Shown piece by piece: positions 1,289-29,238 of a stretch of 40,925 nt of DNA. Source of the stretch: a virus (taxonomy: Duplodnaviria > Heunggongvirae > Uroviricota > Caudoviricetes). Below the pieces are notes generated by a model. It was not told the DNA's origin and did no database searches. It saw only the letters and a program-made list of their open reading frames with translations. Numbering within the stretch: the first letter of the stretch is position 1; every line of letters begins with the position of its first letter. The stretch lies in the IMG/VR virus record IMGVR_UViG_2585427787_000014. One strand, given 5' to 3'. A program made the translations under genes and the position numbers.

Positions 1289-1774
1289 TCACCTGGTCAG
1301 CGAATCGTACTGCTTTTCACAGACTCGTCCGGCTTCGGCGGCCCGATCAGCGTACTCTGCCAGTTGTCGGTTTCGCTCGAGAGATTTGCTGAGCACGTCG
1401 GCAAGCAAAACTCCGGTGTCTGCGGCTGACGCCCCAGAGCCGACAGTGGCGTTATACTGCCTGAGCTGCTCACGGATGGCAACGAGCTGTTGCTGCAACC
1501 TGCCAGCGCGAGCGGCAGCATCAAGAGCATCATTGCGCGCCTGGTCGATAGCACGCTGTGCTTCACGTTCATTTGTCGCTTTCTCCTGTTCGTCATGCAG
1601 ACGCGCTTTCTCATCTTCGGCTTTTCGATCTGCCTTTGCCTGTGCATACCCGGCGTCGTACTGACGGTTGCCGTGTATATTCCAGGCAACAACGCCACTG
1701 ACCACCAGCGCAGCAAGCATCACGACAATAAGCAACTGTTTCCAGTATGTTTTTAATAATACCGAGATCATAAA
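1289..1774 (-). CDS. Rz-like i-spanin (inner-membrane spanin)
   Basis: Start taken at the internal Met (MISVLLKTYWKQLLIVVMLAALVV...) of track ORF 1289-1903. N-terminal TM helix then a charged coiled-coil region; lies immediately downstream of the endolysin with a 7-nt overlap. Confidence 0.6.
   Translation of the reverse strand, partial: FMISVLLKTYWKQLLIVVMLAALVVSGVVAWNIHGNRQYDAGYAQAKADRKAEDEKARLHDEQEKATNEREAQRAIDQARNDALDAAARAGRLQQQLVAIREQLRQYNATVGSGASAADTGVLLADVLSKSLERNRQLAEYADRAAEAGRVCEKQYDSLTR
1297..1572 (-). CDS. Rz1-like o-spanin lipoprotein embedded in Rz in another frame
   Basis: Inside track ORF 1297-1716: signal peptide plus lipobox (MNVKHSVLSTRRAMMLLMLPLALAGC) followed by a Ser/Pro-rich short mature part. 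Start is either Met at 1572 or 1533. Confidence 0.4.
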   Translation of the reverse strand: MNVKHSVLSTRRAMMLLMLPLALAGCSNSSLPSVSSSGSITPLSALGRQPQTPEFCLPTCSANLSSETDNWQSTLIGPPKPDESVKSSTIR

Positions 1775-2394
1775 AGCACCTTGCTGGCAGTGATGTACCG
1801 CGCGCGCCGGTCGTCGATGCCGTTCTGACCGCCATTGATGATCTGCGTGACGCGCACCAGGTCGCCGGTGTACTTCATGCAGCCTTTGGTGGCGAAGAAC
1901 CATGCAGCGCTGCGGGCCGCGTATTCGTCCTGCGCCAGCAGCTCAGGCTGAGAAACCAGATCAACCTTCAGGCCGTTACCGCAGTCACGATAGTTATCCA
2001 GGAATGTTATCCCGATAAGGCCACGCGCCCGGTATTTCCATCCATCACCCGGAGCGTTGTTACCGTAGCGCTTGCTGTACACCAGGTTGGCGATTGCGCG
2101 CTGGCGCTCCAGTGGCAATGCCTTCTCATAGGTCTTCCTGCCAAGCGCGCTGGCCTGGTCAGGAGTAATGCGCCCGGCGCGGATAAAGCCAGCCAGACCG
2201 GCAATGCTGTAGTTGAAATTCTCAATCAGCCTGGTGAATCCGGTGCTTTCATGCCCTGCCTGGGCAATGAACATTGCCTGATGCTGTGGATCAATAATGC
2301 CGAACTCTTTCATCGCTGCGGTGATATGCGGATACCAGCGCACAGCCAGTTGCTCAGTTATACCGGCAGCGCGCCGGAACTGGTTAATGTCCAT
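1768..2394 (-). CDS. endolysin, glycoside hydrolase family 19 (chitinase-like lysozyme)
   Basis: 208-aa ORF; translation resembles GH19-type phage endolysins as I recall them (FIAQAGHESTGF..., GRGLIGITFLDNY...); sits between the holin-like genes and Rz. Confidence 0.75.
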   Translation of the reverse strand: MDINQFRRAAGITEQLAVRWYPHITAAMKEFGIIDPQHQAMFIAQAGHESTGFTRLIENFNYSIAGLAGFIRAGRITPDQASALGRKTYEKALPLERQRAIANLVYSKRYGNNAPGDGWKYRARGLIGITFLDNYRDCGNGLKVDLVSQPELLAQDEYAARSAAWFFATKGCMKYTGDLVRVTQIINGGQNGIDDRRARYITASKVLL

Positions 2395-2692
2395 GTTGAG
2401 ACCTCGATATTTTGAATATCTGCACGACGTTACCGCGCGTCTTCAGAACGGCGGCAAGCATGACAGCATTGATGATGACCTCCGATAAATCGGCGGACAT
2501 TGGTGTGTGATACCAGATTGCGTATGCAGCGCGGACAGGAATGCTGGCGGCGGCAACAATGAGAAAGTAAGCGATCCACCCTCCCCATCTGCGATGTTGA
2601 GACCCATTACGCCTGAATGTGCCGACGCGGATTGCTATACCTGAACAGATAACCGCATTGGCAATAAGCAAAAGCAACTCATGAGTTGTCAT
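2384..2692 (-). CDS. lysis-cassette membrane protein (second holin/antiholin-like component)
   Basis: 102-aa ORF with about three hydrophobic helices; overlaps the holin-like gene upstream and the endolysin downstream. Confidence 0.45.
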   Translation of the reverse strand: MTTHELLLLIANAVICSGIAIRVGTFRRNGSQHRRWGGWIAYFLIVAAASIPVRAAYAIWYHTPMSADLSEVIINAVMLAAVLKTRGNVVQIFKISRSQHGH

Positions 2693-3092
2693 CGTCTTTT
2701 CTCCCCGGGATTAACTCGCGTGGATTATCGGAACGGTGATAGAGCCAGATGCCAATACGGACTGCGACTATTGCTGACACGAAAGCGCCAGCGGAGTACG
2801 CAACCCCTTTCTCAAACATATCTGTGGTGATGCCAGGGAAAGAGGATGCAAAGCCGATGAGGAATGTTGCTGTGGGTTTGTAGAAGAGAAGGCCACAGAG
2901 GAAACTGAGCATCGACAAGAGAACCCGGCGCCGTATCGGATACTCAACTGCTGAGGTAACAAAAATTACCGCACCAGCCAGAGCACCTAGCGCCACCTCT
3001 GGCGGAACTCCTGCGATTACCGCAGCAAGCGACCCCATGCTAAGCCACTGATTTAAAGACTCACTGGTTAGCCCGGCTGACATAATGACCAC
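2679..3092 (-). CDS. holin-like membrane protein
   Basis: 137-aa ORF with multiple TM helices and a charged C-terminal tail (RSDNPRELIPGRKDDDNS); first gene of the lysis cassette. Confidence 0.5.
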   Translation of the reverse strand: MVIMSAGLTSESLNQWLSMGSLAAVIAGVPPEVALGALAGAVIFVTSAVEYPIRRRVLLSMLSFLCGLLFYKPTATFLIGFASSFPGITTDMFEKGVAYSAGAFVSAIVAVRIGIWLYHRSDNPRELIPGRKDDDNS

Positions 3093-3210: not shown

Positions 3211-4665
3211 TTATTGCAAATATCCTTTTTTGTTTTTTAGCATTCTCGTTAACGCCTCTGTCCATGAAGCCATGATACTGATTTGCCCCTCAACTGTAGG
3301 ATGGATGTTGTCACCATACCATCCTATGTTTGCTCCAAAGTTTCTGCGCATATCAGCAAATTCATAGCCATTTTGTATGCAGAACTTTTTCAGCGCATGA
3401 GTATATTTTGCATGCGCGGCATAGTTAGCAGTAGTTACACCGTGAATACCACTATGCTCCTTAGTAGTAAAAATTGGGAAAATGCCAAAAACAGGGATAG
3501 CACCTGCGGCAACTATTTTATTTGCTATAGTCTGAACGTTTGTTACATACTGAGCTACAGCGGTACCACCTTGCTGGTCGTTAGTTCCTATCATACAAAG
3601 TACAACATCATGAGGTGAGTAATCTGTTGTTGAGCCTTCACCGGAAGACCAATAGGATGAACTGGTACCACTTACAGCATAATTTGTAATTGATACCTTA
3701 CCTACGTTGTCTGAGTTCTGTATAAAAGATGGTAATAGTTTTGTTATATCGTTGCTGCACCATGCGCCATAGCTAATTGAGTCTCCTATTACCCCAATAT
3801 TCAACGGACGCTTAACTCTCACTTTATAGTTTGACGTTTTAAGACAATCCAAAAAAATAACACCTTTGGCATCGCCACTACCCAACAAAATGAATCCTGC
3901 GTTAGCTACGGCTCCATTGAATCTATAAACTGGAAAGCCGTTAATAATAAATGTCATTACTGAATCATTAACAACAAATCCAAGATTAACCTGCTGATTA
4001 CTAACCCATCCATACGCACCACCGTTAGGGAGGGTGTAGGACTCATTTATTGTTTGAGTTCCATAAAAATTAAATCCTTTAACCATTAAGGTTGCACTTG
4101 ACACTGTTACATATGCTAATATAACCTCGTTTGAGGTTTTTATAAATACACCACATGATTCAGACATTCCACTTGTAAACACATTGATCTCATAAAGAGA
4201 ACCATTCTCAAGTGATGTTGGGTATAGAACCTGTGGGTTCGCTGAGAAATCAGATGACCACGTCACAGTGCTTGATGTTACAATTCCTGTTCCTGAGATG
4301 CTAATGTCTCCTGTTGAAACATTATAGACTTTCTGATTCCAGCTCGTCAGATCCACAACAGAAGATAACTCATTTAGTGACATGTTAACTAAACCAGGAG
4401 CAACATTATACAACTCCTTCAAGTCAACGAATGTATTTGCAGGTTTAACTAAAGTTGTTCCACTTACAGGATTTTTAATTCTTAAATTTGTTAATAATAA
4501 CAAATCTTTTGTATTTGGATTTTCATCAATATTAAATGTTATACCATCATCAGCATGAATTTTCAATCCTGATAAATCAGGCCGACCGCCAGAAAAAAAA
4601 AACGGTACCAGCCCCGTCAAAGTATAATGTTTCTCCAATTTCTGAAAGATAACTACGGGCAGCAT
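3211..4665 (-). CDS. tailspike C-terminal part with SGNH/GDSL esterase domain (downstream frame of a split tailspike)
   Basis: 484-aa ORF. C-terminal SGNH hydrolase blocks: GDS (IGVIGDSISYG), GxND (CMIGTNDQQGG), DxxH (GDNIHPT). Overlaps upstream ORF 4577-5788 across a T10 run. AT-rich. Confidence 0.65.
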   Translation of the reverse strand: MLPVVIFQKLEKHYTLTGLVPFFFSGGRPDLSGLKIHADDGITFNIDENPNTKDLLLLTNLRIKNPVSGTTLVKPANTFVDLKELYNVAPGLVNMSLNELSSVVDLTSWNQKVYNVSTGDISISGTGIVTSSTVTWSSDFSANPQVLYPTSLENGSLYEINVFTSGMSESCGVFIKTSNEVILAYVTVSSATLMVKGFNFYGTQTINESYTLPNGGAYGWVSNQQVNLGFVVNDSVMTFIINGFPVYRFNGAVANAGFILLGSGDAKGVIFLDCLKTSNYKVRVKRPLNIGVIGDSISYGAWCSNDITKLLPSFIQNSDNVGKVSITNYAVSGTSSSYWSSGEGSTTDYSPHDVVLCMIGTNDQQGGTAVAQYVTNVQTIANKIVAAGAIPVFGIFPIFTTKEHSGIHGVTTANYAAHAKYTHALKKFCIQNGYEFADMRRNFGANIGWYGDNIHPTVEGQISIMASWTEALTRMLKNKKGYLQ

Positions 4666-5788
4666 TATATTGAGTGAAAGAATCTGTTACCCCATCATAC
4701 TTAATACCCCACTGCCTCGCCCTTGTCGGATATAAGGACTCTACATACATGCCACCTGCAATAGAAAATATATGCCCTCCATCATCAGTAGCGGATCCAC
4801 TGCGGATTACTCCAATATTTCCACCTCCATCATTCTTTGAGTAATAACCAGACCATTCAACCATCATTCCATTGTACGATGAGTCAAAAACAACATGGTG
4901 GGCATTAGATAACACGCCAGACCTTAGATCTGCTACTGTAGAGAAAGTCAGTTTTACAACATTATTGTCGAGGTAATTCTCAAGCGTTCCGAAGTACTTA
5001 TCGCCAATAAATGACGCCCCGTTACTGGACGCAAGATCAGACCTTAAGCTGGCATCGCCAACACTAAGCCACTTACCACTTCCTATCCCCCCTGTGCTCT
5101 CAGGTGTAGAGTCGGTGGGGACTACTTTTGGTAGTGTTCCATCCCACCTGAACCATTCGCCTGAGCTTTCCTGGAGAAGAACGTCGTTAGGATAGTTGAT
5201 GGTATTACCCAGCTCAAAAGACCTCTTCGTGTTATAGCCATACAGTCCATTCTTCAATGTATCAATGATAGTTGCCAATAGGTTACTCAAATCACGATAA
5301 AGATCATCAATATATTTTTTTGTAGCTGCATCTTGTGGCATAGACGGATCACGGAGGTTTCTTATATAGAATCCCAGCGCATCATAGAAACTGGCAATGC
5401 TGCTTGGTCTTTTTAGTGCCAATCTGTTATCACTAAAAGCCTGCTGAATTAGCATCGTCAGTTTATCAAAAGCATCTTCATGTACTTCTGCGAAGAACTT
5501 ACCCTGATTTCTGAGATCTGTTTCCTGGGTAACTGGCAACTCTCTGGATATCGAAATCTGATAACCATTAGCAAGAGGAGCAGACAAAACAACATTTCCT
5601 CCAGTGTATCCACCAGCGCCAGTTACCGTATAACCGGTATCCAGAACCAATTCTGTTACGTTCCCGTTCAGGTCAGACACCTGAACAACCAGGTCGGATT
5701 TTTTGAAAATACGGAAGGTATACGGAAATGATGTCGTAACGCCGTTACCTGTGTATTCGTTGTGGTCAACTTCGGTTGAGACCGTCAT
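4577..5788 (-). CDS. tailspike N-terminal (virion-attachment) part (upstream frame)
   Basis: 403-aa ORF ending five codons after the T10 run. N-terminus (MTVSTEVDHNEYTGNGVTTSFPYTFRIFKK...) matches my recollection of conserved tailspike head-binding domains of epsilon15/phiV10-like podoviruses. Confidence 0.65.
   Translation of the reverse strand: MTVSTEVDHNEYTGNGVTTSFPYTFRIFKKSDLVVQVSDLNGNVTELVLDTGYTVTGAGGYTGGNVVLSAPLANGYQISISRELPVTQETDLRNQGKFFAEVHEDAFDKLTMLIQQAFSDNRLALKRPSSIASFYDALGFYIRNLRDPSMPQDAATKKYIDDLYRDLSNLLATIIDTLKNGLYGYNTKRSFELGNTINYPNDVLLQESSGEWFRWDGTLPKVVPTDSTPESTGGIGSGKWLSVGDASLRSDLASSNGASFIGDKYFGTLENYLDNNVVKLTFSTVADLRSGVLSNAHHVVFDSSYNGMMVEWSGYYSKNDGGGNIGVIRSGSATDDGGHIFSIAGGMYVESLYPTRARQWGIKYDGVTDSFTQYNAARSYLSEIGETLYFDGAGTVFFFWRSA
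4593..4602. repeat. A10/T10 homopolymer at the junction of the two tailspike reading frames
   Basis: Ten consecutive A on the plus strand; both tailspike ORFs read through it (VFFF in the upstream frame, PFFF in the downstream frame). Confidence 0.9.
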
Positions 5789-5984: not shown

Positions 5985-6242
5985 ATGCAGCAGTATCACT
6001 ATCCACTGGAAGACGGATTTACCGAAAGGATTCACACGCCGGGAGGCGTCAGGTCACTGGTGGAAGGATCGCACTTGATGAAATTACTCCGGGATCTCGA
6101 TAAGGATGGATTTAATGTCGATGGCCCACTTGCCGAACTGACTGCACTGATTAACTACGTCACCAGCTCACAGATGTCTATGCGGGATCTGCAAACACAT
6201 CTCGACTATTGTGCCGAACAATTACGAAAACAAACCAGATAA
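5985..6242 (+). CDS. small antirepressor-like protein; standalone homologue of the C-terminal domain of the Bro-N protein at 6558-7268
   Basis: GGAG Shine-Dalgarno 9 nt before ATG 5985 (alternative ATG at 5970). About 45% identity by eye over ~80 aa to the C-terminus of the 6558-7268 product (LMKLLRDLDKDGFNVDGPLAELT...RDLQTHLDY vs LMNLLNQLQDDGHDVSGAAAELT...RDIQTHAEY). Confidence 0.6.
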   Translation: MQQYHYPLEDGFTERIHTPGGVRSLVEGSHLMKLLRDLDKDGFNVDGPLAELTALINYVTSSQMSMRDLQTHLDYCAEQLRKQTR

Positions 6243-6401: not shown

Positions 6402-6557
6402 ATGCGTTAAGCACAGCTATATCCGAATTATGGTGGGCTGGGCAGGGGTCCGAAAGGACGCCGGTACCACTTAGGCCGGTACGCCAACCTTGTCCAGTTC
6501 ACCACCAGTAATTGGCGTTGCGGTGGTGATTAAAATCACTAAGTGGAGATAACCACC

Positions 6558-7268
6558 ATGGCTAATGCTCAAACTGCCATCTTCAAATTTGAATCTGTTA
6601 ACCCTATCCGTTCCATCATTATCGATGGCCAACCATGGTTTGTAGCCCAAGACGTTTGTAGTGCGCTGCGTATCCAAAACGTCACCCAAGCACTTGAAAA
6701 ACTGGATGATGATGAAAGGTCTATGTTCAACATAGGGCATGAACATCGTGCAATTTTTGACAGCCGAGTAAAAGAGATCAACATCATCTCCGAGTCAGGC
6801 CTCTACACACTGATCCTCCGCTGCCGCGACGCAGTGACACCAGGCACTATCCCATACCGCTTTCGTAAATGGGTTACAGGTGAGGTTCTTCCTCAGATCC
6901 GCCGCACCGGAAGTTACATTAAAAACTCGCTCCCGCAGGAAGAGCGCATAAAGATGGTTGCCGACCAGGTAGCCAACGCCACAGCATCAGCAGTGATGCA
7001 GGCGATGAAGATAGAGAACAAAACCTACAGTGCCCCACTGAAGCCCGGCTACCGCAGCCTGATTCATTCGCCGTCTGGTGTTCTCGGCCTGACGGAGAAC
7101 TCACTGCTGATGAATCTGCTGAACCAGTTACAGGACGACGGGCACGACGTATCGGGCGCGGCGGCGGAGCTGACCACCATGTTCTGCTACATCGTCGGTG
7201 TGAGCAAATGCCTGCGTGATATCCAGACGCACGCGGAGTACATCAACGACAAGGCAGGGTTCTTCTGA
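6558..7268 (+). CDS. Bro-N domain antirepressor-like protein
   Basis: GGAG 9 nt before ATG 6558 (track ORF begins at GTG 6543). N-terminus (AIFKFESVNPIRSIIIDGQPWFVAQDVCSALRI...) has Bro-N/antirepressor character; C-terminal ~80 aa paralogous to the 5985-6242 product. Confidence 0.6.
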   Translation: MANAQTAIFKFESVNPIRSIIIDGQPWFVAQDVCSALRIQNVTQALEKLDDDERSMFNIGHEHRAIFDSRVKEINIISESGLYTLILRCRDAVTPGTIPYRFRKWVTGEVLPQIRRTGSYIKNSLPQEERIKMVADQVANATASAVMQAMKIENKTYSAPLKPGYRSLIHSPSGVLGLTENSLLMNLLNQLQDDGHDVSGAAAELTTMFCYIVGVSKCLRDIQTHAEYINDKAGFF

Positions 7269-7415: not shown

Positions 7416-7595
7416 ATGCGAAACGAAAAATTGCAGATGCGTAGAGCGCAAGCTGCCGCAAGACGTTCTTTCAATGGAAGCGTAGAGTGCGTAAAAGTTA
7501 CTATGACAAAAGATCACGCAAGTCGCGTATCCCGCGCTTTCTTTGATTCTCGTAACAATAAGGAAAATTATGAGTTCGTCTGCGTCGCAGAATGA
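7416..7595 (+). CDS. small basic protein (59 aa) overlapping the start of the YafO-like gene; candidate antitoxin/regulator
   Basis: Not in the ORF track (<60 aa). ATG preceded by GAGGT; translation MRNEKLQMRRAQAAARRSFNGSVECVKVTMTKDHASRVSRAFFDSRNNKENYEFVCVAE; overlaps the next gene by 26 nt in another frame. Confidence 0.3.
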   Translation: MRNEKLQMRRAQAAARRSFNGSVECVKVTMTKDHASRVSRAFFDSRNNKENYEFVCVAE

Positions 7596-8115
7596 TAAAA
7601 ATCAAATTGTCAGATATAAGGGTCGAGTATTGCATACGCAAAATTTCTCGGCCCTTTGTGCATCTGATCTTGAGCTGAAGAAAGTATCTGATGCCTTTAC
7701 CCAGTATTGGAAAACGGGATACCATCCATCTCTTGGTAAAGATGCTGCATTTGCTCGTCCGACAGAAATGCTTAAACTAAATGTCAGGCATACTCATGTC
7801 GATAACCAAGACTATATTCCAGAAGATAGTGATAAAAAACACACTGGTAAAAAATCATCTTGGGATGCATGGAAAAAAATAGCGTCTGTGCAAGTAAAAT
7901 GCATACCAACAAGTAATTGCTTTTTAGTTTATTCGGTAAATCACAATCGTGATGCGCTGGTTATGTTTTTTGTTGACGCAGATGCCCACAACATAACTGA
8001 GCAAGAAGAGTTTAAAGAGGCAGCAATCACTATCAGTTATCAATTCTTTGAGAAAACAAAAACAGAACCAATGCCTTTAGAAGAAGATCTTTTTTCTGAT
8101 AAATGGAAGGAATAA
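7570..8115 (+). CDS. YafO-family toxin-like protein (type II TA-like candidate)
   Basis: AAGGA before ATG 7570 (track start 7543). Translation resembles E. coli YafO as I recall it (SLGKDAAF...NVRHTHV...CFLVYSV). AT-rich; has its own terminator. Confidence 0.45.
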   Translation: MSSSASQNDKNQIVRYKGRVLHTQNFSALCASDLELKKVSDAFTQYWKTGYHPSLGKDAAFARPTEMLKLNVRHTHVDNQDYIPEDSDKKHTGKKSSWDAWKKIASVQVKCIPTSNCFLVYSVNHNRDALVMFFVDADAHNITEQEEFKEAAITISYQFFEKTKTEPMPLEEDLFSDKWKE

Positions 8116-8136
8116 GCCCGCGCCGCGGGCTTTTTT
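8116..8136 (+). terminator. rho-independent terminator after the YafO-like gene
   Basis: GC-rich stem GCCCGCG / CGCGGGC followed by T6. Confidence 0.65.
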
Positions 8137-8208
8137 GTGGACGAAACAAAAGTCAGTGCTACACTCATTGACGCCACATTGAGGTGGATTATAGATGGAA
8201 ATTTCACA

Positions 8209-8370
8209 ATGAAAAAAGCATTTGCTGCACTGTTCGTTTTGTTGTCTCTGGTAGCTTCAACTCAGGCCTTTGCCGGTCGTTGTCAGCACGACAGCGATAC
8301 TGCCGCTGACGGCTCCCGCTGCGGTGGGCGTTCTGCGGATTCCCGCCCGGGTGGCGGTGGCATTCGTTAA
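8209..8370 (+). CDS. small secreted peptide (signal peptide plus ~30-aa Gly/Arg/Asp-rich tail)
   Basis: Internal start of track ORF 8137-8370: MKKAFAALFVLLSLVASTQAFA then GRCQHDSDTAADGSRCGGRSADSRPGGGGIR. Confidence 0.3.
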   Translation: MKKAFAALFVLLSLVASTQAFAGRCQHDSDTAADGSRCGGRSADSRPGGGGIR

Positions 8371-8375
8371 AAACA

Positions 8376-8393
8376 AGGCCGCGAAAGCGGCCT
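8376..8393 (-). terminator. hairpin terminator between convergent genes
   Basis: Stem AGGCCGC / GCGGCCT with loop GAAA; T-rich tract follows on the minus strand, downstream of gene 8402-8698. Confidence 0.5.
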
Positions 8394-8401
8394 GTGACAT
8401 G

Positions 8402-8698
8402 TCACGTTCCTTTTCTGAATGATAGCCGTTCGAAAAATGATGACATTCCACCGCAGACAATAGCAAAGATGATCCCACCAAAGAAGAGAAGGCCAGCCTG
8501 CCACCACTCCCACCGCCATACATCCACAGCGCCAATCATACCAACAATCGCTCCAACAAACGGAATATAACTCACGACAAAAGCAACGGGAGCTGCAATT
8601 ACCCAGTGCAACCCCCACCATGATTCAAGCCCAGCCATAATTGCTGCCAACTGAAAAAGACCAACGACGATATAAACAATGAATCCTATAGCTTGCAT
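8402..8698 (-). CDS. small integral membrane protein (last gene of the internal-virion operon)
   Basis: 98-aa ORF with hydrophobic helices separated by a Trp-rich loop (VDVWRWEWWQ). Confidence 0.5.
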   Translation of the reverse strand: MQAIGFIVYIVVGLFQLAAIMAGLESWWGLHWVIAAPVAFVVSYIPFVGAIVGMIGAVDVWRWEWWQAGLLFFGGIIFAIVCGGMSSFFERLSFRKGT

Positions 8699-8710
8699 GT
8701 AGTCACCTAT

Positions 8711-8884
8711 TTACCCATTAAAAATCAGAGGCCTCCCCTCAATAAGGCTTGCAACAAGAACTACTCCCTGCACAACAAAGATGAACCAGCAAATAGCTTG
8801 AGTCTGAGGGTTAAGAAAATATTTGTAGCGGTCAATAAATAACAATCCACCAGAAATTATCACACTCAAAATAATTAAAAACAC
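8711..8884 (-). CDS. small hydrophobic protein (57 aa), GTG start
   Basis: Not in the track. AGGAAG Shine-Dalgarno then GTG; translation VFLIILSVIISGGLLFIDRYKYFLNPQTQAICWFIFVVQGVVLVASLIEGRPLIFNG; fills the gap between the 824-aa gene and 8402-8698. Confidence 0.25.
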   Translation of the reverse strand: MFLIILSVIISGGLLFIDRYKYFLNPQTQAICWFIFVVQGVVLVASLIEGRPLIFNG

Positions 8885-8893
8885 AACACTTCC

Positions 8894-11368
8894 TTATTGC
8901 GGAGTGACATCCTGAGGTCGCCACCAGTATGTCTGGTTAAACTCTTTCTTCGAACGTTGCTCCATTTTACGCAAATAGCCTGGTGAAAAATACTCCTGCA
9001 TCTGGTTAAAGATCATGTGATCGAGAGCCGCCTTCAAGTACCAGAGATTCGCACCAGGCATCAAACCTTTCCCCAGCTTCACCAGATCACCACCAGTCTG
9101 CTCACTCTTCCCTTCCACAGCATTTAACGGTATGCCCTGAGCAATCTTCACTACGTCATCAACCAGACCAGCTACCGGACCAAGCATCGACGCCAGCGCG
9201 CCGCTTCCGTACCTAGTGTGATCTGACAATAAAAAGTCACCATAAAGGCCAAGACCACCACCTTTCAGTAGAGCACCAAGCCAGAATTTTGCGGCATCTT
9301 CTCCTGTCATCTCTCGAGGATTACGACCAGACGCAAGGTCGTTAAGTTGTTGCGACAAAGCGCCAAGAATGGTCGTACTGGCAATAAACGTCGCAATATA
9401 TGCCGCACGCCCACCAGCAGACGGCATACCCATAGCGCGTGACCAGTGACGCATAACAACCGAGATAGGGAACGATTTAAACAGGAAAACACTTCTCGTT
9501 AATTCACCTTTCCATGTTCCACGCTGAATACCAGAACCGGTTATCAGTTGCTCACGTGCTCCCGGTGTAATAACAGCCATATCAACTTCTTCAGTTACGG
9601 CACCGAGCAGTTTACGCATTGCCTCAAATTTCACGCGTTCAGGCTCACCAAGATGTTTAACTGCTGAATCAGGGATACGCATAATGCTTTCCGGTGTCAG
9701 CATCGTATTATTACCGTTCCCCCAGTCCTCCTGTTGCGCCAGCTTCCATACGCTCCAGTCTGTGTCAGTAATCCCTTTGCTTTTCAGGATACGAAAATCA
9801 GAGTCATCGAGGCTACGAAGGTCTGGTGTTCGTGACACTACTTCTCCCAGGCTTCCCATCATGGTTACGCCATAGGCGCGCTTGTGCGCATCTGACCATG
9901 CTGTAAGCCCACTGGCACGCATTACCGCCGTTGCCGCCCAACGAGACACTGACGGCCCCATATTATCCATCGCCCAGCGGTTAACGCTGCCAAGTAGAGA
10001 TTCCATCGCCAGACCAGCGCGGCGCGCCCGCGCAAGTTCTGTACGGTTCGTTGGGTCCATAGCTTCAAGCTGGTTGCGGAATAACTGGTTCATTGGAAGG
10101 TTGGTAACCTTCGCAGACAGATACATGGTTCCAAGATCAGAGAACGATGACAGCAACGCGGATCCGAGTCTGCTGGCAACCAGCCAGTTGCGGATATTGT
10201 CAGACCATCGCGCGATGTGCGGATTCGCTACAGGCTGTGTCTTTCCGGAAATAAAGTTGTACAGATTCTCTGTGTTGTTCGCCAGCCGCTCGACTTTACC
10301 GGTTTTACTCGGGTTAGCTGTTGCCGTTTCTGCCTTAACCTGATCAAGAAGGGAGCGGAAAACATGATCGGGGTTTGGACCATATGTTTCCACCAGTGCA
10401 ATATCTTTACTGATACCTTCCAGGTGACCGACCATGATTTCCCATAGAGAGCGATCGCCATAAAGTTGCTGATATTGCAGATAGGAATCTGCATCTTTGA
10501 AATGTATCTGTCGTGATGCATTACCACGGTTAGCACGTGCGCCGGAAATTCGCATTCCGGTATCAGTAAGCTTATTCAGCCCACCAGTAGCGATCGTGTT
10601 ATAAGCCTCTCCAAGAAATGCAGACAACTCGGCATCGTTCATCAGTTGTCCATCGGCTCGGATATAATATTTGCGATCCAGCTTACCTATAACATCGCTA
10701 ACCCACTTATCCTTTGATACCGCCCCAACCTTTTCCATAGAATGATGTTGAGGGATCCCCCAGTTTTCGAGATAGCCAATGTCCCCACCAGCATCATTAA
10801 ACCTGCGGCGCAGTAGCTCTGTCACTTCTCTCCACGCCTTAGCACCTTTTCTTGCTTTAGCATTGCCAGTATTTTGCCCCCGCATTTCATATACCAGGTC
10901 ACGTACGCCCGCTTCATCTTCAAACAGACCAAAAAAGCGAGGATCAACTGCTTCGAATGCCTCCTGCAATTGACTCAATGCATAATCACGGGTGGCTTTT
11001 GTTCTGGATTCAACAGAGAGGAAATTCGATTTACCGTCTGCATTAAAAGCAATAGTACGGTTAAGAGCGCCAAGTTTCCCATCAGCCCCTTGATAGCTAT
11101 TGATAAATTTATCCAATCTCTGACGTGCGGCTATAGTGAGGGCCACACGACGTTTCTTTAATGCCGCTTCTCGCTGTAATTCTTCAGATGCCAATTGTGC
11201 TGCACGATATAGCCGCTCTGATTCGGAAAGTTGTCTCCACGACATCGGGTCATCACGAGCAATGGAGCGCATATTTCGATAAATGCGGTCTTCAATGTTC
11301 TGTATTTCTCGCGCCGTTAACGTGCGCTGCGCCGCCTGCTGGACCGCTTGTATACATTCCTGTCTCAT
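8894..11368 (-). CDS. large internal virion/ejection protein (T7 gp16 position)
   Basis: 824-aa ORF, last large gene of the block before the tailspike side; function assigned by position and size only. Confidence 0.6.
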   Translation of the reverse strand: MRQECIQAVQQAAQRTLTAREIQNIEDRIYRNMRSIARDDPMSWRQLSESERLYRAAQLASEELQREAALKKRRVALTIAARQRLDKFINSYQGADGKLGALNRTIAFNADGKSNFLSVESRTKATRDYALSQLQEAFEAVDPRFFGLFEDEAGVRDLVYEMRGQNTGNAKARKGAKAWREVTELLRRRFNDAGGDIGYLENWGIPQHHSMEKVGAVSKDKWVSDVIGKLDRKYYIRADGQLMNDAELSAFLGEAYNTIATGGLNKLTDTGMRISGARANRGNASRQIHFKDADSYLQYQQLYGDRSLWEIMVGHLEGISKDIALVETYGPNPDHVFRSLLDQVKAETATANPSKTGKVERLANNTENLYNFISGKTQPVANPHIARWSDNIRNWLVASRLGSALLSSFSDLGTMYLSAKVTNLPMNQLFRNQLEAMDPTNRTELARARRAGLAMESLLGSVNRWAMDNMGPSVSRWAATAVMRASGLTAWSDAHKRAYGVTMMGSLGEVVSRTPDLRSLDDSDFRILKSKGITDTDWSVWKLAQQEDWGNGNNTMLTPESIMRIPDSAVKHLGEPERVKFEAMRKLLGAVTEEVDMAVITPGAREQLITGSGIQRGTWKGELTRSVFLFKSFPISVVMRHWSRAMGMPSAGGRAAYIATFIASTTILGALSQQLNDLASGRNPREMTGEDAAKFWLGALLKGGGLGLYGDFLLSDHTRYGSGALASMLGPVAGLVDDVVKIAQGIPLNAVEGKSEQTGGDLVKLGKGLMPGANLWYLKAALDHMIFNQMQEYFSPGYLRKMEQRSKKEFNQTYWWRPQDVTPQ

Positions 11369-28660: not shown

Positions 28661-28894
28661 TCAAAGTCCATCAAATTCATCGTAAAAACTCTCGTCAAGA
28701 TACCCTTCCCATTTACCGCGAATGAAAATTACATCCTCGCCGCAAGGGTGCTGACTGTCGATAACTATATCCCTCCTGGCGCAACCATACTTATGCATGA
28801 GAAATTTAACCTCTTTCGGAAAATTTGCTGAGTTATCTCTCATATCTTCAAGGTCGTAGCGTATTTTTGGCATAACACCTTCGTGACATGTCAC
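28661..28894 (-). CDS. hypothetical protein
   Basis: 77-aa ORF, ATGA-coupled to the upstream gene. Confidence 0.5.
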   Translation of the reverse strand: MTCHEGVMPKIRYDLEDMRDNSANFPKEVKFLMHKYGCARRDIVIDSQHPCGEDVIFIRGKWEGYLDESFYDEFDGL

Positions 28895-29238
28895 GCTATT
28901 AATTTCGTTTCATGCCAGCCTTTAGTCACCCAGCATTGCGAGTCACCATTACACGGGCATGAATTAACGGGAACTCTCTCGCCGCACTTACCGCAAAGTT
29001 TTCTGCTGATCGATTTTATACGCCCGCGCACACGTGCATCATCCTGGCGGATCAGCAGCGCGATGTACTCGGCCATTTCATAGGGATCGCGACCAGGGCG
29101 CCGGGCGGCGCAGTTCCGCGCCAGCATTTCCTGCTCCTGCTTATCCAGCACCAGTTCAATTTTGCGCTCACCGGCGGCGGACTGCCGAGCGCGCTGCGCG
29201 GCTTTGCGTTCTGCGGGGGATTTAGCCACGAATCGCAC
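28891..29238 (-). CDS. Cys-rich (zinc-finger-like) basic protein; possible late regulator
   Basis: 115-aa ORF with CGKCG...CPCNGDSQC cluster and a basic N-terminus; lies just before the packaging genes. Confidence 0.45.
   Translation of the reverse strand: MRFVAKSPAERKAAQRARQSAAGERKIELVLDKQEQEMLARNCAARRPGRDPYEMAEYIALLIRQDDARVRGRIKSISRKLCGKCGERVPVNSCPCNGDSQCWVTKGWHETKLIA

What the first reader, a model, noticed from the sequence alone, without database searches (positions are those of the whole stretch)
8209..8884. Cluster of small membrane/secreted proteins between the ejection-protein genes and the antirepressor island
A 53-aa secreted peptide candidate (8209-8370), a 98-aa multi-TM protein (8402-8698) and a 57-aa hydrophobic ORF (8711-8884, GTG start, not in track) sit at the end of the internal-virion operon, separated by terminators. 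Small membrane proteins at this location in temperate phages often mediate superinfection exclusion or lysogenic conversion.
Basis: inference. Interest (0 to 1): 0.45.

Follow-up and report, generated by a model that had tools for sequence, protein, structure and literature searches.

The report
Accessory membrane-protein genes after ejection operon
Three tiny but genuine genes in an E. coli epsilon15/phiV10-like prophage are swappable accessory cargo of untested function: two inner-membrane proteins at the end of the DNA-ejection-protein operon and, facing them, a secreted peptide of about 31 residues; they most plausibly protect the lysogen's envelope, for instance against other phages.

Summary
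The three ORFs exist at the stated coordinates and are real genes. dN/dS against a Klebsiella phage is 0.20 for p57, 0.03 for p98 and 0.04 for p53, while the off-frame controls exceed 1.

- p57 (8711-8884) and p98 (8402-8698) lie on the minus strand. Each has a Shine-Dalgarno site and follows the 824-aa gp17-like ejection/virion gene with no terminator in between.
- p53 (8209-8370) lies on the plus strand, convergent with them. It is a separate unit flanked by two hairpin terminators, with a conserved -10-like element.

In 160 Uetakevirus loci, the site between the gp17 stop codon and a conserved palindrome plus terminator is a cassette-exchange slot. In 149 of them it starts with a small transmembrane protein, drawn from at least 12 unrelated families. 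p57+p98 is one allele; phiV10 gp21, epsilon15 gp18 and a small-TM-plus-lipoprotein pair are others, and one Klebsiella prophage carries a Rap1a immunity protein there.

p98 homologues follow the last ejection gene in Salmonella, Kosakonia and Yersinia prophages. Cassette type does not track tailspike type.

No known family, fold or defence model matches. A P22-SieA-like entry block is the best analogy. It is unproven, and no lysogenic promoter was found for p57/p98.

The parts
8894..11368 (-). 824-aa gp17-like virion/ejection protein, the last large gene of the internal-virion operon. Its stop codon is the left boundary of the variable slot.
   Evidence: PHROG 684 'virion structural protein', E=0. 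Same position as phiV10 p20 and epsilon15 gp17. 26% identical over its full length to the 833-aa protein that precedes a p98 homologue in Salmonella.
8711..8884 (-). p57: a 57-aa two-TM hairpin protein with a GTG start and an AAGGAAG Shine-Dalgarno site, beginning 9 nt after the gp17 stop. It is the first gene of the slot cassette.
   Evidence: 13 homologue clusters, 67-96% identical, in Escherichia, Citrobacter, Klebsiella, Salmonella and Enterobacter. dN/dS 0.197. GC 0.368 against 0.494 for the gp17-like gene. No PHROG or Pfam match.
8402..8698 (-). p98: a 98-aa polytopic inner-membrane protein (TM, short helical hairpin, TM; basic C-terminus) with an ATG start and an AGGTGA Shine-Dalgarno site, 12 nt after p57. 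It is the second gene of the cassette. Its TGA stop lies inside the palindrome.
   Evidence: PHROG 3075, unknown function, E=8e-53. 43 homologue clusters. Invariant W..WWQA..LFFG motif. 682 representative clusters with E<=0.001 in a profile search. AlphaFold pLDDT 88.5. dN/dS 0.033.
8394..8405 (.). 12-bp perfect palindrome GTGACATGTCAC, the right boundary of the slot, overlapping the stop codon of the last cassette gene.
   Evidence: Chance expectation 0.07 per window. An exact copy sits at the end of the slot in 134 of 160 Uetakevirus loci, whatever the cassette. Also present in epsilon15 itself, at the gp18 stop.
8376..8393 (.). Shared hairpin (GGCCGCGAAAGCGGCC) between the convergent p98 and p53 genes. 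On the minus strand it is a canonical intrinsic terminator with a T-run.
   Evidence: -14.3 kcal/mol on the minus strand and -15.7 on the plus strand, z = -3.8 and -5.0. Conserved, with differing loop sequences, in distant loci.
8209..8370 (+). p53: a 53-aa precursor. It has a signal peptide (residues 1-22, cleavage predicted after AFA) and a 31-aa mature peptide, GRCQHDSDTAADGSRCGGRSADSRPGGGGIR, with two invariant Cys (C-x12-C).
   Evidence: PHROG 14503 'membrane associated protein', moron category, E=2e-40. 57 homologue clusters, named 'transmembrane anchored protein' by NCBI. The mature part is much more conserved than the signal peptide. dN/dS 0.044. The AlphaFold model is not confident for the mature part.
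8138..8208 (+). p53 upstream control region. It holds a -35-like TGGACG (8138-8143), a -10-like TACACT (8160-8165; T, A and final T invariant in 15 divergent contexts), an inverted repeat GCCAC-N6-GTGGA (8173-8188) and a weak Shine-Dalgarno site.
   Evidence: Alignment of 15 divergent loci. 97% of cells in the repeat pair, with one compensatory change. The promoter assignment is an inference; the consensus scan did not score it at 9 of 12 or better.
8114..8132 (+). Intrinsic terminator (AAGCCCGCGCCGCGGGCTT plus a T-run) that ends the upstream YafO-like gene and marks the left edge of the p53 module.
   Evidence: -15.0 kcal/mol. It travels with p53 behind several different upstream genes.

Best explanation
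The finding covers two independent accessory modules of an E. coli Uetakevirus (epsilon15/phiV10-like) prophage. Both encode envelope-targeted products.

**Module 1: p57 + p98**
- It is one allele of a precisely bounded cassette slot at the 3' end of the late ejection-protein operon, between the gp17 stop codon and the GTGACATGTCAC palindrome plus terminator.
- It yields a two-TM hairpin protein and a roughly three-TM protein that insert in the inner membrane (shown by prediction).
- Most likely mechanism (inferred): like P22 SieA, they sit in the inner membrane and interfere with the trans-envelope DNA conduit that incoming podophage ejection proteins must build. Superinfecting DNA is blocked after adsorption, independently of O-antigen type.

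**Module 2: p53**
- It is a self-contained, convergently transcribed moron: terminator, -10-like element, 5' inverted repeat, ORF, terminator.
- Its product is exported by Sec and cleaved to a peptide of about 31 residues, probably disulfide-bonded, in the periplasm (inferred from sequence). It acts there on an unknown envelope target.

**Shown versus inferred**
- Shown: both modules are genuine, conserved and horizontally shuffled cargo.
- Inferred by analogy: the exclusion function.
For: - **Real genes.** Purifying selection acts in the called frames only. SD sites are conserved with GTG/TTG/ATG starts. Families span Enterobacterales.
- **Membrane or secreted nature.** Hydropathy, a confident helical model of p98, and the signal peptide with a conserved Cys pair in p53.
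- **Accessory slot, E. coli loci.** The gp17 C-terminus is 97-100% identical across these loci. By ORF chaining of the 80 IMG/VR loci, the slot holds p57+p98 in 40, phiV10-gp21-type in 30 and a small TM protein plus lipoprotein in 8. By tblastn over 85 loci, including five reference loci, the counts are 42 and 31, and p57 and p98 are always together.
- **Accessory slot, all loci.** In 149 of 160 Uetakevirus loci the first slot gene is a TM protein of 140 aa or less, from at least 12 unrelated families. p57 has deviant GC, 0.37 against 0.49.
- **p98 recurs after the last ejection gene.** Examples are the Salmonella prophages L087-L089 (gp17-like gene only 26% identical, p98 53%), Kosakonia L200, and Yersinia kristensenii L086 and the related L201.
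- **Known cargo in the slot.** One allele is a recognised periplasmic immunity protein, Rap1a, at 48 bits against a cut-off of 27.7. Another is a lipoprotein with an LLVGC lipobox.
- **Independence from receptor.** Cassette type is independent of tailspike type, as expected for a post-adsorption mechanism.
- **Precedent.** P22 SieA is a 3-TM inner-membrane protein encoded between the last ejection-protein gene and the tailspike. [quoted passage not shown]
- **p53 as a separate unit.** Its presence or absence is independent of the slot allele. It has the same flanks in many contexts, including the non-Uetakevirus phage TL-2011b and a Pectobacterium prophage.
Against: - There is no sequence, profile or fold similarity to SieA or to any known exclusion or defence protein.
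- p57/p98 run in the same direction as the late operon and are tightly linked to it. No promoter scoring 9 of 12 or better lies upstream, and only 8 of 12 matches lie inside p57.
- Slot-1 genes in the epsilon15 group overlap the gp17 stop by 1-4 nt. This points to late, lytic-cycle expression rather than the prophage expression expected for exclusion. P22 sieA, by contrast, is convergent and has its own promoter.
- A small TM gene is almost universal at this position (149 of 160 loci). That could equally mean a generic lytic-cycle role.
- In the only transcript study of a phage carrying these genes (phiv142-3), orf11/orf12, the equivalents of p53/p98, are not among the serum-induced genes, and no absolute expression is given.
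- No experiment on any member of the three families was found.
Confidence: 0.4

Rival explanations
1. Lytic-cycle helper. The small TM protein(s) made with the ejection proteins serve the phage's own late programme. They might shield the producer's inner membrane from newly made membrane-active ejection proteins, assist their handling or packaging, or tune membrane events before lysis.
For: - The genes run with the late operon and are SD-linked or overlapping with the gp17 gene, with no separate promoter found.
- A small TM gene sits at this position in 149 of 160 loci.
- p98 homologues repeatedly sit right after the last ejection gene in distant phages.
Against: - Phages with 97-100% identical gp17 C-termini carry three unrelated cassettes. 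A specific partnership with gp17 is therefore unlikely.
- 11 of 160 loci lack such a gene.
- Other alleles are a lipoprotein and a Rap1a immunity protein, which have no obvious assembly role.
- In the Yersinia loci p98 is separated from the ejection operon by a convergent gene.
- p57 has foreign GC content.
Confidence: 0.25
2. Lysogenic conversion or a host-fitness factor unrelated to phage exclusion. The products would alter envelope physiology, for example serum or stress resistance, interbacterial competition immunity, or inhibition of a host membrane enzyme in the manner of the epsilon15 gp22 or D3 Iap inhibitors of O-antigen polymerase.
For: - p53 has moron architecture and occurs in several phage types.
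- A Rap1a immunity gene occupies the same slot in one prophage.
- A neighbouring moron of phiv142-3 (orf10) was reported to raise serum resistance (PMC7724020).
- Epsilon15 encodes a 66-aa two-TM alpha-polymerase inhibitor.
Against: - Cassette type is uncorrelated with tailspike and hence O-antigen type.
- p57 shows no similarity to epsilon15 gp22.
- No promoter was found for p57/p98.
- orf11/orf12 are not among the serum-induced genes.
Confidence: 0.2
3. Membrane-permeabilising proteins: holin or antiholin-like lysis modulators, or small toxic peptides used for abortive infection.
For: - p98 gives weak Pfam hits to Phage_holin_5_2 (E=0.012, 16 bits) and LrgA (E=0.21).
- Holin-like entries appear among the non-significant fold hits.
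- The neighbourhood carries a YafO-like toxin module.
Against: - The Pfam scores are far below the gathering thresholds of 29.2 and 28 bits.
- The phage already has a complete lysis cassette elsewhere: two holin-type genes, an endolysin and a spanin at 1289-3092.
- No fold match reaches E<1, and PADLOC gives no hit.
Confidence: 0.1
4. The small ORFs, especially the unannotated GTG-start p57, are chance reading frames in intergenic or leader DNA.
For: p57 is missing from RefSeq and GenBank annotation of several phages and has no PHROG.
Against: - dN/dS is 0.20 in frame against 1.4-1.9 out of frame.
- None of the 14 alleles has an internal stop.
- The Shine-Dalgarno site is conserved while the start codon varies between GTG and TTG.
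- There are 13 protein clusters down to 67% identity, with 22 invariant residues.
Confidence: 0.02

Closest known systems
P22 SieA (superinfection exclusion A; Leavitt et al. 2024, PMC10883804)
   Same: Both are small polytopic inner-membrane proteins of about 3 TM. Both are encoded in the stretch between the last ejection-protein gene and the antirepressor/tailspike genes of a temperate podophage. At both loci, highly divergent or unrelated proteins occupy the same position. Both are optional among relatives.
   Different: BLASTP finds no sequence similarity. p98 is 98 aa against 162-164 aa, and I did not see the FxRYPxEAxxFNK motif in its sequence (reading). sieA is convergent with its own promoter and is prophage-expressed, whereas p57/p98 run with the late operon and no promoter was detected. 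No exclusion phenotype is known.
epsilon15 gp18, phiV10 gp21 (PhiV10p21) and the other 'slot-1' small TM proteins of Uetakeviruses
   Same: They have the identical genomic position: they start within about 11 nt of, or overlap, the gp17 stop, and end at the GTGACATGTCAC palindrome plus terminator. They share the tiny TM-hairpin architecture and are all uncharacterised.
   Different: The sequence families are unrelated: separate BLAST clusters, and separate PHROGs or none. In the E. coli loci p57 is always accompanied by a second gene, p98; phiV10 gp21 and epsilon15 gp18 usually stand alone.
Morons of temperate phages (Hendrix/Juhala definition; e.g. lambda bor and lom, HK97 gp15 exclusion protein) - from general knowledge
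   Same: p53 is a single small gene flanked by terminators, with a promoter-like element. It is oriented against its neighbours, is present or absent among near-identical phages, and occurs in several phage types. PHROG places it in the moron category.
   Different: Promoter activity and lysogenic expression are untested. The product, a 31-aa Cys-paired periplasmic peptide, resembles no characterised moron product.
Cor / Llp-type exclusion lipoproteins
   Same: Both are small, Sec-exported, phage-encoded envelope proteins. A true lipoprotein (LLVGC lipobox) is an alternative cargo of the same slot.
   Different: p53 has no lipobox: FAG-R/N-C places a residue between Gly and Cys. There is no sequence similarity, since PHROG gives no hit to those families.
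Rap1a periplasmic immunity proteins (PF18602)
   Same: A Rap1a-domain gene occupies the same slot after the gp17-like gene in a Klebsiella prophage that also carries p53. This shows the slot can carry envelope-immunity cargo.
   Different: p57, p98 and p53 themselves have no Rap1a similarity.

Membership tests
P22 SieA family | Sequence homology to SieA types A-C, including the conserved FxRYPxEAxxFNK motif | tested here: not met
   BLASTP of p98 against P22 SieA gives no alignment with E<=100. PHROG and Pfam scans hit only PHROG 3075, of unknown function. I did not see the motif in the p98 sequence (reading); no pattern search was run.
P22 SieA family | Polytopic inner-membrane protein (about 3 TM) | tested here: met
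   By prediction only: three hydrophobic stretches and an AlphaFold model with helices 2-28, 32-59 (kinked) and 65-97 at pLDDT 88.5. Localisation is not testable here.
P22 SieA family | Gene located between the last ejection-protein gene and the tailspike gene | tested here: met
   The order on the window is the gp17-like gene (8894-11368), p57, p98, then the Bro-N island, then the tailspike. The P22 layout is shown.
P22 SieA family | Own promoter and expression from the repressed prophage | tested here: inconclusive
   No sigma-70-like site scoring 9 of 12 or better lies upstream of p57/p98. Only 8 of 12 sites lie inside p57. No expression data exist.
P22 SieA family | Blocks DNA injection of related phages, with escape mutations in ejection proteins | not testable with these tools
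   Requires plating and DNA-entry assays.
Moron (autonomous accessory transcription unit) | Flanked by a terminator and carrying its own promoter | tested here: inconclusive
   For p53, both terminators are strong. A TAnnnT -10-like element is invariant in 15 divergent contexts, but it was not scored by the consensus scan and its activity is untested. p57/p98 share one downstream terminator and have no promoter.
Moron (autonomous accessory transcription unit) | Present or absent among otherwise near-identical phages, often with deviant base composition | tested here: met
   p53 is present in 23 of 42 p57+p98 loci and 3 of 31 phiV10-gp21 loci. p57+p98 alternates with other cassettes. GC is 0.368 for p57 and 0.574 for p53, against 0.49 for the window.
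Holins (Pfam Phage_holin_5_2 / LrgA) | Profile match above the gathering threshold | tested here: not met
   16.3 bits against a cut-off of 29.2, and 12 bits against 28. A separate complete lysis cassette is present.
Bacterial lipoproteins (Cor/Llp-like exclusion lipoproteins) | Lipobox [LVI][ASTVI][GAS]C at the signal-peptide end | tested here: not met
   p53 has ...QAFAGRC, and its homologues FAGNC or AGSGRC. An extra residue separates Gly from Cys, so signal peptidase I cleavage after AFA is expected.
PHROG 14503 (p53) and PHROG 3075 (p98) | Full-length profile match | tested here: met
   E=2.3e-40 over residues 1-53 of 53, and E=8.4e-53 over 1-98 of 98. Neither family has a tested function.
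Known anti-phage defence systems (PADLOC-DB v2) | Match to any defence-protein model | tested here: not met
   Zero hits at E<=1 for p53, p98, p57 and the two neighbouring ORFs.

The most novel reading that the evidence does not exclude
The site immediately after the last ejection-protein gene of epsilon15-like podophages may be a dedicated cassette-exchange locus, bounded to the nucleotide by the gp17 stop codon and by a conserved GTGACATGTCAC palindrome plus terminator. On this reading it holds a large, unrecognised reservoir of unrelated tiny inner-membrane or periplasmic proteins that block DNA entry or confer envelope immunity. p57+p98 would be a new two-component entry-exclusion system acting on the ejection-protein conduit. 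p53 would be a new class of secreted, disulfide-looped periplasmic peptide effector carried by prophages found in about 10% of complete E. coli genomes.
Probability: 0.3. Interest if true: 0.6.

Novelty: new member of a known kind. Interest (0 to 1): 0.4.

Why it matters
Part of this stretch is found in 540 of 5,426 complete E. coli genomes, and the full trio in 144. Relatives occur in Klebsiella, Salmonella, Yersinia, Kosakonia, Citrobacter, Enterobacter, Cronobacter, Pectobacterium and Dickeya. None of the three families has a tested function, and p57 is often not even annotated.

If the slot cargo proves to be entry-exclusion or envelope-immunity proteins, it would add several new families to a class with very few characterised members (SieA, Imm, HK97 gp15, Cor/Llp). 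It would also help predict resistance of prophage-carrying strains to therapeutic or typing podophages such as phiV10-type phages. The sharply bounded slot offers a practical way to mine more such genes.

If the genes instead serve the lytic cycle, they would point to an unrecognised membrane step coupled to ejection-protein production.

Tried and rejected
- **Family libraries.** Pfam, NCBIfam and PADLOC scans of all three proteins gave nothing above threshold. The weak hits (holin_5_2, LrgA, HxsA3, MarB, PA3371) are rejected as compositional.
- **Fold searches.** The confident p98 model found no match with E<1 in the PDB (best hits K+ channel pore domains, E=3.4) or in BFVD. The afdb50 library was not available. 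The p53 model was too uncertain to search.
- **Domain fusions.** Long proteins carrying a p98-like domain add only other membrane or uncharacterised domains (DUF805, RDD, MORN), which is uninformative.
- **Direct comparisons.** p98 against P22 SieA and p57 against epsilon15 gp22 gave no similarity.
- **O-antigen-specific conversion.** I tested whether p57/p98 track the tailspike. The same tailspike types occur with different cassettes, so this is rejected.
- **Terminator between p57 and p98.** Rejected by folding.
- **Minus-strand promoter-like site at 8215-8188 (10 of 12).** The relatives read ACACAT where the window has ATAGAT, which on my reading destroys its TATAAT. I treat it as chance.
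- **Literature.** 'Transmembrane anchored protein' with 'phage' returned 0 papers. Searches around phiV10, epsilon15 and phiv142-3 found no experiment on these genes. The epsilon15 genome paper (PMC2698709) is not held.
- **One context look-up failed.** P0079 (Dickeya) is not on record.
Full report
**Where we are.** The window is an E. coli prophage or phage of the genus Uetakevirus (epsilon15/phiV10-like). The stretch 7500-9500 matches phages HEMP4 and phiv142-3 at 97% and, in part, phiV10 and TL-2011b. A human-stool E. coli chromosome is 100% identical over window 8130-8900. On the minus strand lie the three large internal-virion/ejection genes, homologues of epsilon15 gp15, gp16 and gp17. 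The last is the 824-aa ORF at 8894-11368 (PHROG 684). On the plus strand, running towards it, are a gp19-like gene, a Bro-N antirepressor (6543-7268), a 59-aa ORF with a YafO-like toxin gene (7416-8115), and then the first ORF of the finding.

**Observation check.** All three ORFs exist with the stated coordinates, but they are not one co-oriented cluster.
- p57 (8711-8884) and p98 (8402-8698) are on the minus strand, directly behind the gp17-like gene.
- p57 starts with GTG 9 nt after the gp17 stop, behind an AAGGAAG Shine-Dalgarno site. p98 starts with ATG 12 nt after the p57 stop, behind AGGTGA. The same signals are present in Klebsiella phage BUCT711, where p57 starts with TTG.
- p53 (8209-8370) is on the plus strand, convergent with p98.
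- Real terminators are the hairpin at 8114-8132 upstream of p53 (-15.0 kcal/mol, T-run) and the shared hairpin at 8376-8393 between p53 and p98 (-14.3 and -15.7 kcal/mol; T-run on the minus strand).
- The terminator-like pattern inside the 3' end of p57 folds no better than shuffled sequence. 'Separated by terminators' is therefore only partly right.

**Are they genes?** Yes.
- Against the BUCT711 copies, dN/dS is 0.197 (p57), 0.033 (p98) and 0.044 (p53). The two other frames of the same DNA give 1.4-9.5.
- Among 14, 22 and 18 distinct alleles in related loci, variable sites concentrate at third codon positions for p98 (52 of 72) and p53 (30 of 40). No p57 or p53 allele, and only one p98 allele, carries an internal stop.
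- Each protein has a homologue family: 57 clusters for p53, 43 for p98 and 13 for p57.
- p57 is absent from several phage and RefSeq annotations but annotated as a 57-58 aa hypothetical protein elsewhere. It has 22 invariant residues.

**What the proteins look like.**
- p53 has a typical Sec signal peptide (MKK, hydrophobic core, AFA|G) and no lipobox. The signal part varies, while the mature 31-residue part (C-Q-H-D-S-D-T-A-A-D-G-S-R-C-G-G-R-S-A-D-S-R-P-G-G) is nearly invariant from Escherichia to Pectobacterium and Dickeya, including both cysteines. AlphaFold gives no confident fold for it. NCBI's name 'transmembrane anchored protein' probably reflects the signal peptide only.
- p98 has three hydrophobic stretches and a basic C-terminus. 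The model (pLDDT 88.5) shows a long helix, a short helix-break-helix and a long helix. Conserved features include W..WWQA..LFFG.
- A profile search finds 682 representative clusters with E<=0.001. Some have the domain fused to DUF805, RDD or MORN modules, which is not informative.
- p57 is a two-TM hairpin with a basic loop, DRYKY.
- None of the three matches Pfam, NCBIfam or PADLOC above threshold. PHROGs place p53 in family 14503 ('membrane associated protein', moron category) and p98 in family 3075 (unknown); p57 has no family. Fold searches of p98 against the PDB and BFVD gave nothing with E<1.

**The key finding: a bounded cassette slot.** I fetched 80 IMG/VR loci whose gp17 C-terminus is 97-100% identical to the window, 80 of the epsilon15 gp17 type, and 24 of a Salmonella type.
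- In the E. coli group the DNA right after the gp17 stop carries one of three unrelated cassettes:
  - p57+p98 in 40 loci. p57 and p98 are never separated; the only exception is a locus cut off by its contig end.
  - The 46-aa two-TM phiV10 gp21 type in 30 loci.
  - A roughly 40-aa TM ORF plus a 126-aa lipoprotein in 8 loci.
- Across both Uetakevirus groups, 149 of 160 loci begin the slot with a protein of 140 aa or less that has at least one TM segment. These proteins belong to at least 12 BLAST-unrelated families. The genes start 9-11 nt after, or overlap by 1-4 nt, the gp17 stop.
- The right-hand boundary is equally sharp. A 12-bp perfect palindrome, GTGACATGTCAC, overlaps the TGA stop of the last cassette gene and is followed by the GGCCGC...GCGGCC terminator. 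An exact copy is at that place in 134 of 160 loci, and in epsilon15 itself.
- p57 also has foreign base composition (GC 0.368 against 0.494 for the gp17-like gene).
- p57+p98 is thus one allele of a hypervariable accessory slot, not a conserved part of the ejection machinery.

**p98 beyond E. coli.** Homologues at 50-60% identity again sit right after the last ejection-type gene.
- In Salmonella prophages with a T7-gp14-like core, the gp17-like protein is only 26% identical while p98 is 53% identical. The higher identity of p98 suggests independent transfer or stronger constraint.
- In a Kosakonia prophage the p98 homologue starts 2 nt after the gp17-like stop.
- In Yersinia kristensenii (L086) and the related locus L201, a convergent secreted-protein gene is wedged between the ejection operon and p98.
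- One 50%-identical homologue lies in a different mobile-element context.
- In these loci p98 occurs without p57. In one epsilon15-type locus it follows a different first gene. In a Klebsiella prophage the slot carries a Rap1a-domain periplasmic immunity protein plus a 134-aa ORF.

**p53 is a separate module.**
- Its presence is independent of the slot allele: 23 of 42 p57+p98 loci, 3 of 31 phiV10-gp21 loci and 7 of the lipoprotein loci.
- It always lies at the distal end of the antirepressor-side island, convergent on the late terminator, behind varying upstream genes.
- It also occurs in the non-Uetakevirus phage TL-2011b and, in opposite orientation, among structural genes of a Pectobacterium prophage.
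- It travels with an upstream hairpin terminator and a conserved leader. A TAnnnT element (TACACT in the window at 8160-8165, TACAAT in most relatives) is invariant in 15 divergent contexts. An inverted repeat, GCCAC-N5/6-GTGG, pairs in 97% of cells but shows only one compensatory change.
- That is the architecture of a moron. Promoter activity remains an inference.
- On my reading of the alignment, phiV10 retains only the last few codons of p53 (...GGGGIR) next to the terminator, a deletion scar.

**Mechanism.** The closest functional analogue is P22 SieA. It is a 3-TM inner-membrane protein encoded between the last ejection gene (16) and the immI/tailspike region. [quoted passage not shown] The position, the membrane character, the allele diversity and the independence from tailspike type all fit a post-adsorption entry block. 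On tailspike type, at least 31 types occur among 53 loci, and the same type is found with different cassettes.

Against this reading:
- There is no homology to SieA.
- The genes run with the late operon, and no promoter scoring 9 of 12 or better was found.
- A TM gene is almost universal at this spot, which keeps a lytic-cycle helper role alive.

I therefore rate the exclusion model at about 0.4, the lytic-helper model at 0.25, other host-conversion roles at 0.2 and holin- or toxin-like roles at 0.1. For p53 only the export and processing steps can be inferred; its target is unknown.

**Novelty and interest.** The genes are in the databases as hypothetical proteins, and small membrane morons are a familiar class, so this is a new member of a known kind rather than a new kind. 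The sharply delimited slot with a dozen unrelated TM families, the conserved palindrome and the highly conserved secreted peptide are worth a modest follow-up. They are common (540 of 5,426 complete E. coli genomes carry part of the region) and wholly uncharacterised. No experimental work was found.

Noticed in passing
window 28883-28894 (second exact copy) and 22906-22917 (one mismatch); first copy at 8394-8405: The palindrome GTGACATGTCAC also overlaps the TGA stop of a 115-aa Cys-rich 'transcriptional regulator' (PHROG 536, 28891-29238, minus strand). That gene sits just upstream of a 70-aa ORF and the terminase genes. The two exact copies therefore bracket the whole late structural operon. 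This could be a regulator-binding or processing site rather than only a recombination linker. Chance expectation is 0.07 copies.
   Followed up: partly
window 7416-7595 and 7543-8115 (+): A 59-aa ORF (PHROG 6685) overlaps the start of a 190-aa YafO-like toxin gene. The Pfam YafO_toxin hit is 23.2 bits, just under the cut-off of 25; RefSeq names the gene a YafO family toxin. It is AT-rich (GC 0.37) and ends at its own terminator. It looks like a toxin-antitoxin-like moron, present in only some related loci and in TL-2011b.
   Followed up: partly
window 3211-4665 and 4577-5788 (-): The tailspike region is split into two overlapping ORFs in different frames: a 403-aa part with the conserved N-terminal adaptor and a 484-aa part with lipase/GDSL-esterase-like similarity. 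This may be a frameshift (sequencing error or pseudogene) or a two-part tailspike. No O-acetyltransferase gene of the phiV10 kind lies between the tailspike and the lysis genes.
   Followed up: no
L007 4813-5407 (also L012, L015, L026, L027, L034, L035, L067): This is an alternative slot cassette: a roughly 40-aa TM ORF followed by a 126-aa lipoprotein (MRKVFLIFGFMLLVGC...; PHROG 3716, unknown function). It looks like a candidate Cor/Llp-style exclusion lipoprotein.
   Followed up: partly
L091 5238-6094 (Klebsiella pneumoniae chromosome CP089325): The slot after the gp17-like gene carries a Rap1a-domain protein, from a family of T6SS amidase-effector immunity proteins (E=1.6e-12), plus a 134-aa ORF, with a p53 homologue convergent on them. 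A prophage here carries an orphan interbacterial-competition immunity gene.
   Followed up: partly
L001 (phiV10) about 6000-6050: phiV10 keeps only the last codons of p53 (...GGGGIR stop) fused next to the shared terminator and palindrome, a deletion scar. The annotated 29-aa PhiV10p22 is a fragment identical to the C-terminus of the Bro-N antirepressor (...MFCYIVGVSKCLRDIQTHAEYINDKAGFF), so it is probably not a gene of its own.
   Followed up: partly
L086 5539-5982 (-) and L201 4542-4976 (-): In Yersinia kristensenii (L086) and the related locus L201, a convergent 144-147 aa gene with a signal peptide (MIMKKFKHLLFLVFISNTSIAS...) is inserted between the last ejection gene and the p98 homologue. 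It has no Pfam match. It is another secreted cargo at the same hotspot.
   Followed up: no
window 8188-8215 (-): The best sigma-70 consensus match in the region (TTTTCA-16-TATAAT, 10 of 12) lies antisense across the p53 start codon. The relatives read ACACAT where the window has ATAGAT, which on my reading destroys its -10 element, so it is probably chance.
   Followed up: partly
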